Source: a virus | IMG/VR virus record: IMGVR_UViG_3300020470_001965 | Direction: 5' to 3' (one strand) | DNA length: 64,000 nt | Shown here: piece by piece, positions 2,174 to 9,611 of the stretch | How positions within the stretch are numbered: the stretch's first letter is position 1 | Layout: each line of letters starts with the position of its first letter | Position numbers and translations under genes: made by a program | The notes under the pieces: model-generated | What the model saw: the letters and a program-made list of their open reading frames with translations, nothing else | Told to the model about the DNA's origin: nothing | Databases searched by the model: none

Positions 2174-2197
2174 GTCCCTCCTTGAGAGGGACTTTTT
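2174..2197 (+). terminator. Rho-independent terminator
   Basis: GTCCCTC-cttga-GAGGGAC + TTTTT. Confidence 0.8.
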
Positions 2198-2230
2198 ATT
2201 TTGCTAAATAGATTAGTTTGTCCAAAAATA

Positions 2231-3028
2231 ATGACAGCACTAATTGATCCAAAAGAATACTCCGACGTGGTTGACCTATTGAGGTCATTTTTTTTGTCTA
2301 AAAATTTCCTAGAAGTTCATACACAAAATCGTTTAAGTATCCTTGCTGCCTGTGAAGACCCAGAGACAGTAGCAACATATGAATACAATGGTCAGGTATG
2401 GCCACTGCCACAGACAGGTCAGATGTGGTTAGAATATGAATTACTATCCAACCCCAAAGCAGAGGGGTTTTTCTGTGTCTCAACGTCGTATAGGGCAGAA
2501 CCAAACCCTGTACCAGGAAGACATGAAGTTATCTTCCCCATGTTTGAGTTCGAGATGAAGGGTGGTGTTAAAGAACTCGAAGATATGGAGAAAGAACTGT
2601 GTGAATGGTTGGGTATACCATTAGATATTGGTAGTATTAGAACCTATCAAGAATGGTCTGACGTTTATGATACAAAAGAACTTGACCATGAACATGAAGA
2701 TTGGATTGGTCGTGGTATGATTACTGACTTCCCTGAGTGGACATCACCATTCTGGAACATGGCTAGAAATGATGATGGTACTAGTAAAAAGATTGATGTT
2801 ATTCTAGGTGGTAAAGAAACTATTGGTAGTGCTGAAAGGAGTACCGATAAGGATCAGATGAGAGAGACCTTCTATACCATATCAGATGGTAAGTATGCTC
2901 AACTTATTATTGATCTGTTTGGTAAGGAAAGAGTAGAGAAAGAACTAGAAGACTTCCTCTCATTCGATTTCTTCCCACGATCAGGTGGAGGCATTGGTAT
3001 ACAACGTCTTATATCAGCCCTTAAGTAA
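2231..3028 (+). CDS. Class IIb aminoacyl-tRNA synthetase paralog (AsnRS/AspRS-like catalytic domain only; AsnRS2/asparagine synthetase-like)
   Basis: Motif 1 LRSFFLSKNFLEVHT, motif 2 YRAE..RH..F.M.EFEM, ETIGSAER, motif 3 PRSGGGIGIQRL; 265 aa with no N-terminal OB-fold anticodon-binding domain. Confidence 0.85.
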   Translation: MTALIDPKEYSDVVDLLRSFFLSKNFLEVHTQNRLSILAACEDPETVATYEYNGQVWPLPQTGQMWLEYELLSNPKAEGFFCVSTSYRAEPNPVPGRHEVIFPMFEFEMKGGVKELEDMEKELCEWLGIPLDIGSIRTYQEWSDVYDTKELDHEHEDWIGRGMITDFPEWTSPFWNMARNDDGTSKKIDVILGGKETIGSAERSTDKDQMRETFYTISDGKYAQLIIDLFGKERVEKELEDFLSFDFFPRSGGGIGIQRLISALK

Positions 3029-3037
3029 GGGCAACTA

Positions 3038-3123
3038 TGTGAGGTGACGAAACTGGTAAACGTGGCAGGTTGTTTCCCTGCTGTTCCTGGCGGGACTTGG
3101 TGGTTCGACTCCACCCCTCACAG
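3038..3123 (+). tRNA. Atypical tRNA with GTT (Asn) anticodon and long variable arm; CCA not encoded
   Basis: Acceptor TGTGAGG/CCTCACA + G73; D arm ACG-AAACTGGTAAA-CGT; anticodon arm GCAGG-TTGTTTC-CCTGC; variable arm GTTCC-TGGC-GGGAC; T arm GGTGG-TTCGACT-CCACC. Confidence 0.9.
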
Positions 3124-4272
3124 TTATTTTTCTACGACTGGATTAGAGATAGATACTGGTTCGAATACGAAGTCTTCGTTAGCACCTATGGTTTCTCTCT
3201 TGATGAGTTTTGCTTTACCATTCTCATCATACTCAAAGACTGATACCTCCGTTGCTGATGTCTTTACTCGTACTGTTTTATTCTTAATAGTTTGGTTACC
3301 ATCTCCGTCAACCTCATAGGTTGTTACTTCTTCTTTATTATCGTTAGCAGTTACCTGTGGGATAGTATGTGAGTGATTTGGTAGTCCGTTTTGAGGTAAA
3401 GTAACCACAACGTCAGCACAAACACTAGCATATGGTGACTTCGGATGGAAGACTATGCCTTGCTGTTTGAGTTCACCACAATTTTTGAGACGAGCTATCT
3501 CAAAGTCTAGCCTTTTGTTGGCAAGTAACTGTGCTTGTAGTGCTGTCTGTGTATTATATGCTTTCTTACAACCGTTTTGTAGTTGTTTATCTAATGGTAT
3601 TGATATCGTTGCACTGATACCTAAATTTAGATTCAGGTTATCCTTCTGTCCAGTTCTAGTAGGAATATAGTAGAGGATCTGACCTGGATTATCTGGGATA
3701 CCATCGTCATCATTGTCTGCGTTATTGTAGACAGGATCATCATAGTAATATTCTTTAGGATTCTGGTGTGATATCGCATGTGTCACAAATGGTGTGATGT
3801 TAAGGGTAGGACCCTGACACGAGATACCATTGCCATATGTGTTTGTAATATATGGACCTTGTAAAACTTGTATTGCCTGGTTGGTGACTGAGCCCGAACT
3901 ATTAGCTATCGGATTGGCAGTCGCACTAACACCTCCTACGTCTGCTGCATAGGTAGGTGAACATGTTAACGCTGCAATTACTGGGAGAAGATACTTGTTG
4001 TATCTGTTACGCTTGTTACGTTGGTGGTACGTTGGATTATTGTCTGGTTGGATATACCTGGTCCCATGTATGTAGTCGTTAGTTGGAATGCCCCTCCTGG
4101 AGTTGTTATCGTGTAGTCTCCTAGGGTTGATAGATCCAGTTGAGATGTTGTCTGAGGAGTTGTGTCCGTGGCTGAACCAAGTACGTCTACTGAACCCGAT
4201 GTTACGGTTGCGTCGGGTAATAGACTTGATCCATTGTGTGAAATTCCTGTTCCCGTTACTGAATATTGCCAT
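3124..4272 (-). CDS. Conserved cyanophage protein with signal-peptide-like segment; true start unresolved (probably near 3978-4000)
   Basis: Mature-like part ADVGGVSATANPIANSSGSVTNQAIQVLQGPY; the first ~95 codons overlap the upstream gene in another frame. Confidence 0.7.
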   Translation of the reverse strand: MAIFSNGNRNFTQWIKSITRRNRNIGFSRRTWFSHGHNSSDNISTGSINPRRLHDNNSRRGIPTNDYIHGTRYIQPDNNPTYHQRNKRNRYNKYLLPVIAALTCSPTYAADVGGVSATANPIANSSGSVTNQAIQVLQGPYITNTYGNGISCQGPTLNITPFVTHAISHQNPKEYYYDDPVYNNADNDDDGIPDNPGQILYYIPTRTGQKDNLNLNLGISATISIPLDKQLQNGCKKAYNTQTALQAQLLANKRLDFEIARLKNCGELKQQGIVFHPKSPYASVCADVVVTLPQNGLPNHSHTIPQVTANDNKEEVTTYEVDGDGNQTIKNKTVRVKTSATEVSVFEYDENGKAKLIKRETIGANEDFVFEPVSISNPVVEK

Positions 4273-4448
4273 CCTGTATTATAGTCAATAGAGTTAATCG
4301 TCTCAGTCACTGTCGAGGTTGTCTCGGTGTGGCTCGTCATTGAGCCCTGGGTGAAGTTGGGGACCACAGGGACCGCCAGGGCAGGTACAGCACTTGCAAG
4401 TACAGTACCCACAGCAGTCACATATAGGGCAATCGTCTTCTTCATCAC
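3978..4448 (-). CDS. Secreted or virion Ser/Thr-rich beta protein
   Basis: Signal peptide ...AVPALA|VPVVPNFTQGSMTSHTETT. Confidence 0.8.
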   Translation of the reverse strand: MMKKTIALYVTAVGTVLASAVPALAVPVVPNFTQGSMTSHTETTSTVTETINSIDYNTGWQYSVTGTGISHNGSSLLPDATVTSGSVDVLGSATDTTPQTTSQLDLSTLGDYTITTPGGAFQLTTTYMGPGISNQTIIQRTTNVTSVTDTTSIFSQ

Positions 4449-4457
4449 TATATATCA

Positions 4458-4979
4458 CTATCTTACTGTGAGTTCAGTTACGAATTGTGTTGTTACTGTA
4501 GTACCAGCACCACCAGCATTAGGTGCATCATCACCAGTAGCAAAACCATGAGCACTAGTAACCTGACCAGCTAGGTCTCCAGCAGATCCAGCAGCAGTAG
4601 AATACTGATTAGAGTATGCAGCAACAGCACCAGTAGAAGGTGCAGAACCTATAGCGTCACCTGTAGTTAGACTAGTTGTGAAGCTGAATGCATTTCCAGC
4701 AGTGGTTTGGGTCGCATCTGGAACAGTAAATGTAGCAACACCTGTGTTACTTACAGCAGATATACCACCAAGACTTGCAGCAGCGGATCCACCAGACGGT
4801 GTTACTGTTGTTGTGACATTATTTCCTGATATACTAAACGTATTTCCAGCTCTAGTGACAGATGTCGCAGCTGCGTCCACTGTTAAAGCAGCACTCGTTG
4901 TCATACGGTGGTGTATATCGGCTCTTGCAGCAGAGCCACTCATCAAAATCATACCGAAAAGCAGTAATACTTTTCTCAT
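4458..4979 (-). CDS. Secreted or virion Ala/Thr/Gly-rich protein
   Basis: Signal peptide MRKVLLLFGMILMSGSAARA|DIHH; C-terminal QFVTELTVR. Confidence 0.8.
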   Translation of the reverse strand: MRKVLLLFGMILMSGSAARADIHHRMTTSAALTVDAAATSVTRAGNTFSISGNNVTTTVTPSGGSAAASLGGISAVSNTGVATFTVPDATQTTAGNAFSFTTSLTTGDAIGSAPSTGAVAAYSNQYSTAAGSAGDLAGQVTSAHGFATGDDAPNAGGAGTTVTTQFVTELTVR

Positions 4980-5139: not shown

Positions 5140-5568
5140 ATGGGAAACCTAACACGTTATCGTGCGACAGATCTTCCACAACTAATGGAAAAGATCAACA
5201 AGTATGGCATAGGACTAGACTCATACTTCGATCATTTCTTTAGTCAAGATCAATCGACAAACTATCCACCCTACAATTTGATTCATCTTAGTAATCATGA
5301 ATCACGTTTGGAGGTCGCACTAGCAGGATTTAAAAAGGATGAAGTCAAAGTGTATACCGAGTATGGTAAACTCTTTGTAGAAGGTAAGGTAGAAGAGAAA
5401 GAAGAACCAGAGTATGCTTACAGAGGACTCTCTAAGAGAAACTTCAGTAGGTCATGGCAACTCTCTGAGGATGTAGAGATCAAGCATGTTGATTTCGAAG
5501 ATGGACTACTGAATGTTTTACTTGGTAAGGTAGTTCCTGAGCACCATGCAAGAAAAGACTATATGTGA
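5140..5568 (+). CDS. hsp20: Small heat-shock protein (Hsp20/IbpA-like)
   Basis: NYPPYNL, EVALAGF, YRGLSKRNFSRSWQL, FEDGLL; SD AAGGAG. Confidence 0.95.
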   Translation: MGNLTRYRATDLPQLMEKINKYGIGLDSYFDHFFSQDQSTNYPPYNLIHLSNHESRLEVALAGFKKDEVKVYTEYGKLFVEGKVEEKEEPEYAYRGLSKRNFSRSWQLSEDVEIKHVDFEDGLLNVLLGKVVPEHHARKDYM

Positions 5569-7119: not shown

Positions 7120-9611
7120 TGGATTTTTATACGGACGTTCTTCTCCTTGGCGATGATATACTCTATAGGGGGTATGAAGGCCAGGAACCTGTCCAGTACA
7201 GGGAGAAGGTTCGACCTACCTTATATTTTGTACCAGAGGATCAGTCCAAAACGTCAAAGTATAAGACTCTAGATGGACGTTATGCACACCCCAAGAAGTT
7301 CGATGGAGCAAGGGATGCTCGTAGTTTCCTTGAGAAGTATGAGCATGTTGATGGTCTAGAGGTACATGGGTATGAACGGTTCGTGTATCAGTACATTGCC
7401 GAGAGATTCCCTGACGAGATCCGTTTTGATATGGACCTCATGAAGATCTTTACGATTGACATTGAGGTTGGATGTGATAATGGGTTCCCTTCTGTAGAGG
7501 AGTGTCGTGAGGAGGTGCTATGCATCACCTTAAAGGATGTCGTCTCCAAGAAAATTATAACTTGGGGTAGCAGGGAATTTAATGCACCCGATAACGTTGA
7601 GTATCGGGTCTTTTGGACGGAGCAGGAGTTGTTAGAAGACTTCCATTCATGGTGGGTCGCTAATACTCCCGATGTTATTACAGGTTGGAACTGTAATTTA
7701 TATGACATCCCTTACATCTGTCGTCGCATGGAGCGGGTGCTAGGTGAGAAGTGGAAGAAGTCCCTCTCACCGTGGAATAGAGTGGTAGATAGAGAGATAG
7801 TAATCAGGGGTCGTAAGCAACTGGCATATCAAATTGCTGGTGTTACGATCCTTGACTATCTTGATTTGTATCAGAAGTTTACCTATTCAGCACAAGCATC
7901 TTATCGCCTAGATCATATTGCTAACGTAGAACTAGGGCAGCAGAAACTAGACCACTCTGAGTTTGAGAATTTTAAAGCATTCTATACAAATGATTGGCAG
8001 AAGTTTGTAGAATATAATATACATGACGTGGAACTTGTTGACCGTTTGGAAGACAAGATGAAACTGATTGAGTTAGCATTGACACTTTCTTATGACGCTA
8101 AGGTAAATCTATCTGATGTTTATAGTCAGGTAAGGATGTGGGATACCCTCATCTATAATGATCTGGCAAAGAGAAATGTTGTTGTTCCACCTAAGATAAG
8201 TACTAAGAAAGATGACCAATACGCAGGGGCATATGTCAAAGAGCCTACACCAGGCATGTATGAATGGGTTGCGAGTTTTGATCTTAACTCCCTGTATCCT
8301 CATCTCATCATGCAGTACAACATCAGTCCCGAAACCCTTGTTGAGAGACGACATGCAACAGCCTCAGTTGATGGACTGCTTAGTAGAGAAGTCAGGATCG
8401 ATGGAGATTATTCCGTGTGTGCCAATGGAGCACAATACCGCAAGGACATCCACGGATTCCTACCTGAAATGATGCAACGGATCTACGATGACCGTACGAT
8501 CTATAAGAAGAAGATGCTTAAGGCAAAGCAAGACTATGAGCACACCCCCACAGAACAACTCCAGAAGGACATTGCTAGATATAATAATATCCAGATGGCC
8601 AGAAAGATCCAACTTAACTCTGCCTACGGTGCTATCGGTAACCAGTACTTCAGATATTACAATCTTGCGAACGCTGAAGCCATCACCTTGTCGGGACAAG
8701 TATCAATCAGATGGATAGAGAATAAAATAAACCAGTACATGAATAAGGTACTGAAAACTGAGGAGAAAGATTATGTTATTGCTTCTGATACCGATTCCAT
8801 TTATTTGCATTTGGGTCCTTTGGTTAAAGCTGTATACAAGGGCAGAGAGAAAAGCAGTGAGAGCACTCTGCGGTTCCTTACGAAGGTGTGTGACGTGGAA
8901 CTTGATAAGTATATACAAGATTCTTACCAAGAACTGGCTACCTATGTAAATGCATATGATCAGAAGATGATCATGAAGCGAGAGAACCTCGCTGATAAAG
9001 GTATTTGGACTGCGAAGAAGAGATACATTCTTAATGTATGGAACAGTGAGGGTGTTCAGTATGCTGAACCTAAACTAAAGATGATGGGTATAGAAGCAGT
9101 TAAGTCTTCTACACCTGCACCATGTCGTGTAGCAATTAAAGATACATTAGATCTTGTTATGACTGGTACAGAGGATCAGGTTCAGTCATATGTGTCTAAG
9201 TTTAGAAAGGAATTTGAGACACTACCGTTGGAGGACATAGCATTCCCACGTAGTTGTAACAATATACAGAAGTTCTCTTCTAGTAAAGACATCTATGGTA
9301 AGGGGTGTCCCATGCATGTACGTGGGTCACTATTATATAATTTTTATGTTAAGAAACATAAGATAGCACACAAGTTTCCACTCATTCAGGAGGGTGAGAA
9401 AATTAAGTACATGTATTTGAGGAAACCAAATCGTATAGGAGAGAATGTCATCTCGTTCTTCCAAACTTTACCATCTGAGTTTGAGCTTGACGGATCGATA
9501 GACTATGACTTACAATTTGAGAAGAGTTTTCTTGCACCTATCAAGGTTATCCTTGATGCTATAGGTTGGTCCCCTGAGAAACGTGTATCACTGGAGCATA
9601 TTTTTGGATGA
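7119..9611 (+). CDS. 43: Family B DNA polymerase (gp43)
   Basis: DIEV exonuclease [28 protein letters not shown]. Confidence 0.98.

What the first reader, a model, noticed from the sequence alone, without database searches (positions are those of the whole stretch)
2231..3123. Anticodon-domain-less AsnRS/AspRS paralog paired with its own non-canonical tRNA(GUU): candidate dedicated enzyme-tRNA system
Seen: a 265-aa ORF has class II motifs 1-3 but starts at motif 1, so it has no OB-fold anticodon-binding domain. Only 9 nt after its stop lies an 86-nt cloverleaf with GTT anticodon and G73. A hairpin (GCCCTT-aagt-AAGGGC, 3017-3032) sits between them, and a terminator (2174-2197) separates the pair from upstream genes. 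Known: canonical AsnRS/AspRS read the anticodon with the N-terminal domain. Catalytic-only paralogs act otherwise (archaeal AsnRS2 asparagine synthetase, EpmA on EF-P, GluQ on the tRNA-Asp anticodon), and SerRS recognises tRNAs by the long variable arm. Inference: the two genes form a co-evolved unit. It could be an orthogonal pair charging Asn/Asp via acceptor and variable arm, a donor for non-ribosomal amino-acid transfer, or a counter to host anticodon nucleases or tRNA depletion.
Basis: partly seen in the sequence, partly recalled or inferred. Interest (0 to 1): 0.9.

Follow-up and report, generated by a model that had tools for sequence, protein, structure and literature searches.

The report
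Phage AsnRS-like enzyme with captive tRNA
A marine cyanobacterial virus carries a cut-down asparagine-tRNA-synthetase look-alike followed nine bases later by an oddly built asparagine tRNA that occurs almost only behind this gene, and the enzyme's relatives are tied to pyrimidine (DNA-building-block) synthesis, so this is probably an untested enzyme-plus-tRNA metabolic module and not an ordinary tRNA charger.

Summary
ORF 2231-3028 is a 265-aa class IIb synthetase catalytic core with no anticodon domain. A stop-codon hairpin lies at 3017-3032. An 86-nt tRNA(GUU) at 3038-3123 has a tRNA-Leu-like class II body, U1-A72, G73 and U37.

The window is an uncultured T4-like cyanophage. GenBank already annotates the pair as 'tRNA ligase' + 'tRNA-Asn' in P-SSM2, P-SSM5 and P-SSM7. 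I found no functional study. This scan has reported the same pair before on other DNA.

- **Linkage is one-sided.** All 81 evaluable cyanophage loci have the tRNA, and 73 of 74 evaluable loci found from the tRNA alone have the enzyme just upstream. In contrast, only 31 of 80 diverse viral loci and none of 74 cellular loci (mostly Patescibacteria) have it.
- **The tRNA is under selection.** 19 of 24 pairs show compensatory changes.
- **The enzyme is nearest AsnRS** and has Asn-type pocket residues.
- **The family is tied to pyrimidine synthesis.** Members with the same active-site motifs are fused to PyrD or PyrF. pyrE sits beside the pair in some phages and co-occurs with it in every cultured phage that has it. 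In Patescibacteria the enzyme is anti-correlated with aspartate transcarbamoylase and unrelated to AsnRS.

Best reading (about 0.4): a pyrimidine-linked ligase with a captive Asx-carrier tRNA. No activity has been measured.

The parts
2174..2202 (+). Intrinsic-terminator-like hairpin plus T-run. It closes the upstream gene and isolates the cassette.
   Evidence: 7-bp stem with 5 G-C pairs, then TTTTTATTTT. Sequence.
2204..2210 (+). CTAAATA, a possible T4-type late-promoter-like motif 21 nt before the ATG. Inferred and untested.
   Evidence: Sequence read. The likeness to TATAAATA-type late promoters is from my own knowledge. No convincing sigma-70-like site lies upstream of the ORF.
2231..3028 (+). 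265-aa stand-alone class IIb (AsnRS-like) catalytic core. Class II motifs 2 and 3 are intact and there is no anticodon-binding domain.
   Evidence: (PHROG 29758, function unknown).
3017..3032 (+). 6-bp hairpin enclosing the stop codon and ending 5 nt before the tRNA. The structure is conserved while the sequence varies.
   Evidence: 63 distinct upstream segments, nearly all folding to a 5-8-bp hairpin at this place with different stems (GCCCTT, GCACT, GCTCT, ATCCCT, GTCAGC, CCCTGA).
3038..3123 (+). Non-canonical tRNA(GUU): tRNA-Leu-like D arm, long variable arm, U1-A72, G73, U37 and no encoded CCA. Its 3' end abuts the stop of the convergent ORF 3124-4272.

Best explanation
The cassette is one functional module of two parts.

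**Part 1: the enzyme.** It is an adenylate-forming ligase derived from AsnRS that has lost the anticodon domain. Its family works at the entry to pyrimidine synthesis, upstream of dihydroorotate dehydrogenase, orotate phosphoribosyltransferase and OMP decarboxylase, and in place of aspartate transcarbamoylase. It most likely turns an asparagine- or aspartate-type substrate plus ATP into dihydroorotate or a direct precursor of it.

**Part 2: the tRNA.** It is a captive tRNA that is useful only together with this enzyme. It keeps the marks read by a non-discriminating AspRS or by AsnRS (G34, U35, U/C36, G73) and by bacterial GatCAB (U1-A72). It has a pyrimidine at position 37, and in some relatives a non-U at position 33, so it should decode poorly. 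Most likely it presents the Asx substrate to the enzyme's acceptor-end site. It could be loaded by the host's tRNA-dependent asparagine route or by the enzyme itself.

**Expression.** The two are co-transcribed. RNase P cleavage at the tRNA 5' end would free the mRNA, whose 3' end is capped by the stop-codon hairpin.

**Shown:**
- the anatomy
- selection on the tRNA fold
- the one-sided linkage
- the AsnRS-type fold and pocket residues
- the genomic ties to pyrD, pyrE and pyrF and the anti-correlation with pyrB

**Inferred:**
- the reaction
- who loads the tRNA
- co-transcription and processing
For: **Fold and pocket**
- VIA-align ranks AsnRS first (Z 26.1, rmsd 2.2 A, 242 aligned), then archaeal AspRS (24.7), archaeal Asn synthetase A (23.8), and LysRS/GenX (about 23).
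- A family profile hits AsnRS best, at 7.5e-15.
- In those alignments the family reads QTGQMWLE and FEFE. AsnRS reads QSSQLYLE and VEAE. AspRS reads QSPQLYKQ and LDIE.

**Pyrimidine link**
- At least 9 clusters are PyrD-core fusions at 55-58% identity with the same six active-site motifs. There is also one core-PyrF fusion and one core-then-PyrD arrangement.
- Locus L115 reads adenylosuccinate lyase, core, OMP decarboxylase, glutamine synthetase.
- pyrE is present in P-SSM7, P-SSM2, P-SSM5 and a complete IMG/VR genome.
- Among 50,697 phage records, pyrE-like genes occur in only 13. These are those same three cultured phages, six marine virus fragments and one huge phage (compare).
- pyrE lies directly beside the pair in L030, L031, L042 and L047.
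- In Patescibacteria, PyrB passes its cut-off in 2 of 50 enzyme-bearing genomes against 33 of 117 without the enzyme (Fisher p 3e-4). Among PyrF-bearing genomes the figures are 1 of 21 against 26 of 50 (p 1e-4).
- The enzyme shows no relation to AsnRS (p 0.24) or PyrF (p 1.0).

**tRNA tie**
- 81 of 81 evaluable cyanophage loci carry it.
- 73 of 74 evaluable loci found by a tRNA-only pattern have the enzyme upstream on the same strand.
- The tRNA appears in at least four lineages of the enzyme tree.
- G34, U35 and G73 never vary. Position 36 is U, or C in L095 and L122. Position 37 is U in most copies. Position 33 is C in 8 of 51 copies.
- U1-A72 is the bacterial GatCAB identity element, and position 36 is not (PMC1635274).
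Against: - No activity has been measured for any family member, and I found no paper on it.
- The chemistry is conjecture.
  - An AsnRS-type site activates the alpha-carboxylate, which closing a dihydroorotate ring does not need.
  - It is unknown whether the substrate binds flipped, as it does in Asn synthetase A.
- This 64-kb window itself holds no pyrD, pyrE or pyrF.
- Most neighbours of the enzyme in diverse viruses are unrelated to pyrimidines.
- The Patescibacteria comparison has three weaknesses.
  - It is not corrected for phylogeny.
  - The two genome sets are drawn differently.
  - The PyrC profile test was inconclusive: 3 of 49 against 16 of 121 at E 1e-30, and the model fits the phylum badly.
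- One tRNA lineage has A1-U72 instead of U1-A72.
- The Leu-like D arm may hinder host AspRS or GatCAB.
- Whether Prochlorococcus lacks AsnRS and Asn synthetase was not tested here.
- An intact motif 2 loop and G73 are equally what a true charging enzyme would need.
Confidence: 0.4

Rival explanations
1. Private (orthogonal) aminoacylation pair. The core enzyme is a mini-AsnRS that recognises the acceptor end and body of its own tRNA and charges it with Asn for translation of the phage's many AAY codons. This might let the phage reuse free Asn in a host that makes Asn-tRNA only indirectly.
For: - The enzyme is nearest to AsnRS in sequence and fold and has Asn-type pocket residues.
- Motif 2 and motif 3 arginines are intact.
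- The tRNA keeps GUU, G73 and U1-A72 and is tightly and one-sidedly linked to the enzyme.
- The tRNA is the only one in this window, and the only one ARAGORN finds in the 6.8-kb P-SSM2 and P-SSM5 loci.
Against: - Identical active-site motifs occur in PyrD fusions and in genomes with no such tRNA.
- In Patescibacteria the enzyme is unrelated to the presence or absence of full-length AsnRS.
- The same enzyme motifs sit beside GUC tRNAs.
- U37 in most copies, and C33 or A33 in some, are poor for decoding ANN codons (the decoding point is from my own knowledge).
- This reading does not explain the pyrE co-occurrence.
Confidence: 0.25
2. The enzyme is a tRNA-independent asparagine synthetase, like archaeal AS-AR or AsnA (Asp + NH3 + ATP gives Asn). 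The tRNA is an ordinary helper tRNA-Asn that is inherited with it.
For: - Architecture and size match AS-AR, a catalytic core of about 290 aa (Z 23.8).
- Some neighbours are glutamine synthetase and an ammonium transporter.
Against: - NCBIfam AS-A models score 12-16 bits against cut-offs of 322-389.
- There is no positive association with AsnRS in Patescibacteria.
- This reading explains neither the PyrD/PyrF fusions, nor the PyrB anti-correlation, nor why the tRNA is almost never found without the enzyme.
Confidence: 0.1
3. The tRNA is a counter-defence replacement for host tRNA-Asn. Its anticodon loop and body are altered to escape an anticodon nuclease. The enzyme is kept because host enzymes can no longer charge the altered tRNA.
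For: - Phage tRNAs with altered anticodon loops that escape host nucleases are documented (PMC10264068, listed).
- U37 and the variable positions 32, 33 and 38 fit such pressure.
Against: - No nuclease that targets tRNA-Asn in picocyanobacteria is known to me.
- The evidence against the private-pair reading applies here too.
- Tracing the loop changes to defence pressure is pure inference.
Confidence: 0.1
4. There is no biochemical link. The tRNA travels with the gene as an RNA-processing or mRNA-stability element, or as a recombination hotspot of a mobile cassette.
For: - The cassette sits in different genome contexts.
- Homing-endonuclease domains are fused to the enzyme or lie next to it.
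- The conserved stop-codon hairpin suggests a role for processing.
Against: - The same odd tRNA type persists behind enzymes only about 50% identical to each other.
- G34, U35 and G73 are invariant and T54-T55-C56 and G18-G19 are kept, with strong covariation. That is more constraint than a mere processing signal needs.
Confidence: 0.1

Closest known systems
Asparaginyl-tRNA synthetase, class IIb catalytic domain (P. horikoshii 1X54, human 8H53/8TC8, B. malayi 2XTI)
   Same: Best structural and profile match (Z 25.7-26.1, rmsd 2.2 A; E 7.5e-15). Class II motifs 2 and 3 are present. The Asn-type residues L-E after the Q-x-x-Q motif and E-x-E at the end of motif 2 are shared.
   Different: No N-terminal OB anticodon-binding domain. 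It scores 19-22 bits against cut-offs of 343-414 on the asnS models. Sequence identity is 21-23%. The motif 1 proline is replaced (EVHTQ). Its genomic ties are to pyrimidine genes, not to translation.
Archaeal asparagine synthetase A (AS-AR, 'AsnRS2', 3P8T/3REU/1NNH) and bacterial AsnA
   Same: Also a stand-alone catalytic core of about 290 aa derived from the AspRS/AsnRS lineage that has lost tRNA anticodon reading and serves metabolism (Z 23.2-23.8).
   Different: Only weak sequence similarity (E 1.8e-6 for the profile; NCBIfam AS-A far below cut-off). AS-AR has no dedicated tRNA and no known tie to pyrD, pyrE or pyrF.
EpmA/GenX/PoxA (LysRS paralogue that modifies EF-P)
   Same: A class IIb core without an anticodon domain that is used for a non-canonical acceptor (Z 22.6-23.0).
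   Different: EpmA has a Lys-type pocket. Its model scores 13-20 bits here against cut-offs of 264-287. Its partner is a protein, not a tRNA.
tRNA-dependent asparagine synthesis (non-discriminating AspRS + GatCAB acting on tRNA-Asn)
   Same: The captive tRNA keeps G34-U35-U36, G73 and U1-A72. U1-A72 is the GatCAB identity pair, and position 36 is not an identity element (PMC1635274). The idea of an amino acid being made or carried on a tRNA for a purpose beyond decoding is shared.
   Different: The tRNA body is Leu-like with a long variable arm and U37. No gat genes are in the cassette. Loading by host enzymes is untested.
Bacterial class II tRNA-Leu
   Same: Shared D arm (GGUGGYGAAAYUGGUARAC type, 3-bp stem) and long variable arm. 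In genomes that lack the captive tRNA, the best hits of the covariance model are ordinary tRNA-Leu.
   Different: G73 instead of A73 (the A73 rule is from my own knowledge), U1-A72, and anticodon GUU with U37.

Membership tests
Class II aaRS catalytic domain, subclass IIb (Pfam PF00152 tRNA-synt_2) | Profile match above the gathering score and the class II antiparallel-sheet fold with motifs 2 and 3 | tested here: met
   56.1 bits against a cut-off of 25. Model pLDDT 96, Z 22-26 to AsnRS, AspRS and LysRS cores. YRAE...GRH and GGGIGIQRL are present.
Canonical asparaginyl-tRNA synthetase (asnS; TIGR00457, NF003037) | N-terminal OB-fold anticodon-binding domain | tested here: not met
   No such domain in Pfam. 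The ORF starts at motif 1, and an upstream terminator leaves no room.
Canonical asparaginyl-tRNA synthetase (asnS; TIGR00457, NF003037) | Equivalog model score over the curated cut-off | tested here: not met
   19.4 bits against 342.6, and 22.2 bits against 414.
Canonical asparaginyl-tRNA synthetase (asnS; TIGR00457, NF003037) | Asn-type (not Asp-type) specificity residues | tested here: met
   HMMER alignments give QTGQMWLE/FEFE for the family, QSSQLYLE/VEAE for AsnRS and QSPQLYKQ/LDIE for AspRS. The meaning of these positions is from my own knowledge.
Canonical asparaginyl-tRNA synthetase (asnS; TIGR00457, NF003037) | Charges tRNA-Asn with asparagine | not testable with these tools
   Needs biochemistry.
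Asparagine synthetase A (archaeal AS-AR, NF005055/NF005053; bacterial AsnA) | Model score over cut-off; Asp + NH3 + ATP gives Asn | tested here: not met
   15.7 and 12 bits against cut-offs of 389 and 322. Fold likeness of Z 23.8 shows only the shared core. Activity is not testable here.
EpmA/GenX (TIGR00462, NF006828) | Model score over cut-off | tested here: not met
   13.4 and 19.6 bits against 286.9 and 264.
tRNA (Rfam RF00005) | Covariance-model score over gathering and a cloverleaf kept by compensatory change | tested here: met
   45.5 bits against 29. 19 of 24 pairs covary and 99.9% of cells are paired.
Canonical bacterial elongator tRNA-Asn | GUU anticodon, G73, U1-A72 | tested here: met
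   U1-A72 and G73 are invariant in 51 of 51 cyanophage copies.
Canonical bacterial elongator tRNA-Asn | Purine at position 37, U33, short (class I) variable loop, 4-bp D stem | tested here: not met
   U37 in 51 of 51 copies. C33 in 8 of 51. A 5-bp variable-arm stem. A 3-bp D stem with an A-A pair. That these features are canonical is from my own knowledge.
Pyrimidine de novo pathway enzyme (functional assignment, not a sequence family) | Gene fusion, gene neighbourhood and phylogenetic profile shared with pyr genes | tested here: met
   PyrD and PyrF fusions. pyrE adjacency and co-occurrence. PyrB anti-correlation.
Pyrimidine de novo pathway enzyme (functional assignment, not a sequence family) | Catalyses a step that yields dihydroorotate or orotate | not testable with these tools
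   Needs an enzyme assay or genetic complementation.

The most novel reading that the evidence does not exclude
A tRNA-assisted, ATCase-independent route into pyrimidine synthesis. An AsnRS-derived ligase would make the dihydroorotate ring from asparagine (or aspartate) that is carried or made on a dedicated, non-decoding tRNA. That would be the first case of an aminoacyl-tRNA feeding nucleotide biosynthesis, and it would be carried by some of the most abundant viruses in the ocean.
Probability: 0.2. Interest if true: 0.95.

Novelty: new variant of a known kind. Interest (0 to 1): 0.8.

Why it matters
- **The family is very abundant and has no assigned function.** The exhaustive search found 658 clusters at 50% identity. 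More than 590 IMG/VR matches were found. PHROGs lists it as 'unknown' and GenBank as 'tRNA ligase'.
- **If the best reading holds, three things follow.**
  - It adds a new entry into pyrimidine synthesis that bypasses aspartate transcarbamoylase.
  - It adds a new non-translational job for a tRNA.
  - It adds a new kind of auxiliary metabolic gene by which cyanophages reshape nucleotide supply in Prochlorococcus.
- **If the rival holds,** it is a natural minimal synthetase-tRNA pair that does not read the anticodon. That would interest genetic-code engineering.
- **Either way, the question is directly testable** with P-SSM2 or P-SSM7 on NATL1A or NATL2A and with recombinant protein.

Tried and rejected
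- **Huge phages.** I looked for the odd tRNA in LR756501 and LR756508, which encode a 47-48% identical enzyme. There is none. The best model hits are tRNA-Leu, and one ordinary 74-nt tRNA-Asn is present.
- **Enzyme-bearing cellular genomes.** The same search in five of them also found none.
- **Enzyme pocket against anticodon.** I tested whether enzymes next to GUC tRNAs carry AspRS-type K/D residues. They do not; the motifs are identical.
- **AsnRS substitute or Asn supplier.** I tested whether the enzyme plays either role in Patescibacteria. It shows no association with AsnRS (29 of 50 against 56 of 117) or with PyrF.
- **PyrC profile.** Inconclusive, because the model detects few PyrC genes in this phylum.
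- **tblastn with the fused PyrD and PyrF domains** against the window and all loci found nothing.
- **Single distant proteins (P0135, P0160) as IMG/VR queries** found nothing.
- **No whole genome is held for the window**, and no Prochlorococcus handle could be obtained. The host's AsnRS, AsnA and AsnB status was therefore not tested.
- **Literature searches** found no study of this gene pair.
- **The ESM Atlas** returned only the family's own clusters.
- **Other weak hits.** The Rfam THF-II hit at 2172-2193 (E 0.38) is the terminator hairpin, not a riboswitch. The Pfam PASTA-like hit (E 0.099) is noise.
Full report
**What is there**

The window is part of an uncultured T4-like cyanomyovirus. 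Its 20-40 kb stretch matches P-RSM6, P-SSM3 and S-WAM1 at 74-78% identity over nrdA, nrdB, psbA and primase. A terminator-like hairpin lies at 2174-2192 and is followed by a T-run. After it, an ORF runs from ATG 2231 to TAA 3026-3028 and encodes 265 aa.

The ORF's only Pfam family is tRNA-synt_2 (E 4e-15, profile positions 26-292 of 308). PHROGs files it under phrog_29758, 'unknown function'. NCBIfam models for AspRS, AsnRS, LysRS, EpmA and Asn synthetase A all score 10-25 bits against cut-offs of 264-1026.

Nine bases after the stop lies an 86-nt tRNA at 3038-3123. ARAGORN calls it Asn/GTT, and Rfam scores it 45.5 bits against a gathering score of 29. Its features are:
- a 7-bp acceptor stem with U1-A72
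- G73, with no encoded CCA
- a 3-bp D stem with an A-A pair
- a 5-bp variable-arm stem
- a canonical T loop
- the anticodon loop UUGUUUC, so position 37 is a pyrimidine

A 6-bp hairpin at 3017-3032 encloses the stop codon.

**Is the tRNA real and under selection?**

I collected 51 distinct copies from cultured phages and IMG/VR.
- On the cloverleaf, 99.9% of cells pair and 19 of 24 pairs show changes on both sides. No shuffle in 500 reaches this, and slid controls give 3-8 such pairs.
- Invariant positions include U1-A72, U8, G9, G18-G19, the T54-T55-C56 region, G73 and G34-U35-U36-U37.
- Position 33 is C in 8 of 51 copies.

The D arm resembles tRNA-Leu. Where the odd tRNA is absent, the covariance model built from these copies (R1) finds ordinary tRNA-Leu as its best hits.

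The stop-codon hairpin is conserved as a structure with many different stems. This fits co-transcription followed by processing at the tRNA 5' end. That step is inferred.

**Linkage**

GenBank already annotates the pair as 'tRNA ligase' + 'tRNA-Asn' in three Prochlorococcus phages:
- P-SSM7, where it follows gp23 and a three-tRNA cluster
- P-SSM2 and P-SSM5, where it lies between hypothetical genes and a lipase

These are three phages in two genera with different neighbours.

The linkage differs by set:

| Set searched | How found | Loci with the tRNA |
|---|---|---|
| Closest loci: cultured-phage loci and the 80 closest IMG/VR loci (75-94% aa identity) | enzyme query | all 81 with enough downstream sequence |
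| 80 more diverse viral loci | alignment headed by the huge-phage homologue | 31, lying 11-374 nt downstream (one at 1053 nt) on the same strand |
| 80 loci from prokaryote genome assemblies | enzyme query | 6, the ones closest to the cyanophage enzyme and probably mis-binned phage contigs |

The other 74 loci of the third set have no such tRNA. Most lie on large Saccharibacteria or other Patescibacteria contigs among housekeeping genes. Five such whole genomes and two huge-phage genomes hold no tRNA of this type anywhere.

A search of IMG/VR with a pattern taken from the tRNA alone returned 80 loci.
- 73 have the enzyme directly upstream on the same strand.
- 6 have fewer than 70 nt of upstream sequence.
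- 1 (L337) lacks the enzyme.

So the enzyme can do without the tRNA, but the tRNA is almost never found without the enzyme. On a FastTree of 222 family members, the tRNA state needs 8 changes:
- The 81-row cyanophage clade and a 17-row sister clade are all tRNA-positive.
- The next clade, 62 Patescibacteria rows, is all tRNA-negative.
- Other tRNA-positive lineages lie elsewhere on the tree.

**Variation among linked tRNAs**
- G34, U35 and G73 never change.
- Position 36 is U, or C in L095 and L122.
- Position 37 is U in most, A in L102-L105, and G in L108, L113 and L141.
- One lineage has A1-U72.
- Five copies are 74-76 nt with a short variable loop, so the long arm is not essential.
- Many copies outside the cyanophages encode CCA.

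**What the enzyme looks like**

The AlphaFold model is confident (pLDDT 96.1, pTM 0.92). Structural and sequence matches rank as follows:
- VIA-align puts AsnRS first (Z 25.2-26.1, rmsd 2.2-2.3 A, 241-242 residues).
- Archaeal-type AspRS follows (24.5-24.7), then archaeal Asn synthetase A (23.2-23.8), then LysRS and GenX (about 22.4-23).
- A family profile hits AsnRS best (7.5e-15), then archaeal AspRS (3.8e-13).

In the HMMER alignments the family's QTGQMWLE and FEFE align with AsnRS QSSQLYLE and VEAE, and with AspRS QSPQLYKQ and LDIE. The pocket is therefore Asn-type. The reading of these positions is from my own knowledge.

The six active-site motifs are the same whether the neighbouring tRNA is GUU, GUC or absent.

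**Ties to pyrimidine synthesis**

A note from earlier agents of this scan pointed to fusions, and I tested this.
- Longer relatives include at least nine 90%-identity clusters of dihydroorotate dehydrogenase-core fusions (584-661 aa, 55-58% identity to the window enzyme). There is also one core-OMP decarboxylase fusion and one protein with the core N-terminal half followed by DHO_dh. All carry the same active-site motifs.
- In L115 the gene lies between adenylosuccinate lyase and OMP decarboxylase, with a glutamine synthetase after that.
- pyrE is present in P-SSM7, P-SSM2, P-SSM5 and a complete IMG/VR genome that carry the pair.
- Across all 50,697 phage records, pyrE-like genes occur in only 13: those same three cultured phages, six marine single-virus fragments and one huge phage. 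The enzyme occurs in those three cultured phages and three huge-phage records.
- In L030, L031, L042 and L047, pyrE lies directly beside the pair. A PyrE-like gene also lies near the enzyme in five Bacteroidota-labelled contigs.
- This window has no pyrD, pyrE or pyrF, but it is only 64 kb of the genome.

**Profiles in Patescibacteria**

The enzyme is sporadic, present in 4 of 121 sampled genomes of the class.

| Gene | Enzyme-bearing genomes | Genomes without the enzyme | Fisher p |
|---|---|---|---|
| full-length AsnRS-like | 29 of 50 | 56 of 117 | 0.24 |
| PyrF | 21 of 50 | 50 of 117 | 1.0 |
| PyrB over cut-off | 2 of 50 | 33 of 117 | 3e-4 |
| PyrB, among PyrF-bearing genomes only | 1 of 21 | 26 of 50 | 1e-4 |

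The tests are not corrected for shared ancestry, and the two sets were drawn differently, so they are supportive, not decisive. GatB is present in all five genomes checked. PyrC detection was too poor to use.

Lack of ATCase in enzyme-bearing, PyrF-bearing genomes argues against the enzyme being merely an ATP-driven dihydroorotase acting on carbamoyl-aspartate.

**Reading**

The family behaves like a metabolic enzyme at the entry to pyrimidine synthesis, not like a replacement AsnRS or an Asn supplier. Its reaction is unknown.
- An Asn-type pocket, intact ATP motifs and displacement of ATCase suggest formation of dihydroorotate or a precursor from Asn or Asp, ATP and a C1/N donor. This is conjecture.
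- The tRNA is tied to the enzyme one-sidedly and keeps exactly the marks that AsnRS or non-discriminating AspRS read (G34, U35, G73).
  - It also keeps the GatCAB mark U1-A72. Position 36 is irrelevant to GatCAB (PMC1635274).
- At the same time the tRNA carries features that should weaken decoding (U37, and sometimes C33 or A33).
- I therefore favour a carrier role for the tRNA (confidence about 0.4 for the whole reading).
- Lesser rivals are a plain Asn synthetase, a counter-defence tRNA, and a merely physical linkage.

**Not tested**
- Whether the host lacks AsnRS and Asn synthetases. This claim appears in earlier notes of the scan.
- Any activity of the enzyme or the tRNA.

This scan has found the same pair on other DNA several times. 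Those notes led me to the fusion test, but they are not counted here as evidence.

Noticed in passing
L337:6054-6149 (-), with ORF 7520-8035 (-): This is the only evaluable locus where the odd tRNA(GUU) has no enzyme gene directly upstream. A 171-aa ORF 1.4 kb upstream gives weak hits (22-24% identity, best E 0.004) to the enzyme's N-terminal half. It may be a remnant, or the enzyme may lie elsewhere on this 195-kb contig.
   Followed up: partly
L031:2241-2967 and L047:1904-2966: pyrE, then a tRNA-Thr(TGT), then the enzyme and the odd tRNA all lie on one strand. In P-SSM7 a tRNA-Ile/Arg/Leu cluster precedes the enzyme instead.
   Followed up: partly
Proteins P0173, P0175, P0177, P0178, P0252 (alignment A2): Some family members have lost the motif 2 arginine (the RxE motif) and the GGGIG..R of motif 3. 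They are probably inactive paralogues.
   Followed up: no
Protein P0289, and neighbours counted: A GIY-YIG/NUMOD3 homing-endonuclease module is fused to the enzyme or lies next to it in some viruses. This hints that the gene is mobile.
   Followed up: no
G015 contig C20, G080 contig C18, G144 contig C5: Three Patescibacteria genomes each carry three full-length AsnRS-like genes (about 440-470 aa) close together on one contig.
   Followed up: no
L263:1978-2896: A giant-virus-labelled contig has a ten-tRNA cluster about 3 kb from its copy of the enzyme. [quoted passage not shown] The odd tRNA is absent.
   Followed up: no
window 2204-2210: CTAAATA lies 21 nt before the ATG and resembles T4-type late promoters. 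The cassette may be a late transcription unit.
   Followed up: no
window 5140-5568 (+): A 142-aa ORF that looks like a small heat-shock protein, judged by eye only. No search was run on it.
   Followed up: no
window 3124-4979 (-): Convergent ORFs rich in Thr, Ser, Gly and Ala with signal-peptide-like starts (382, 156 and 173 aa). The first one's stop codon directly abuts the tRNA 3' end.
   Followed up: no
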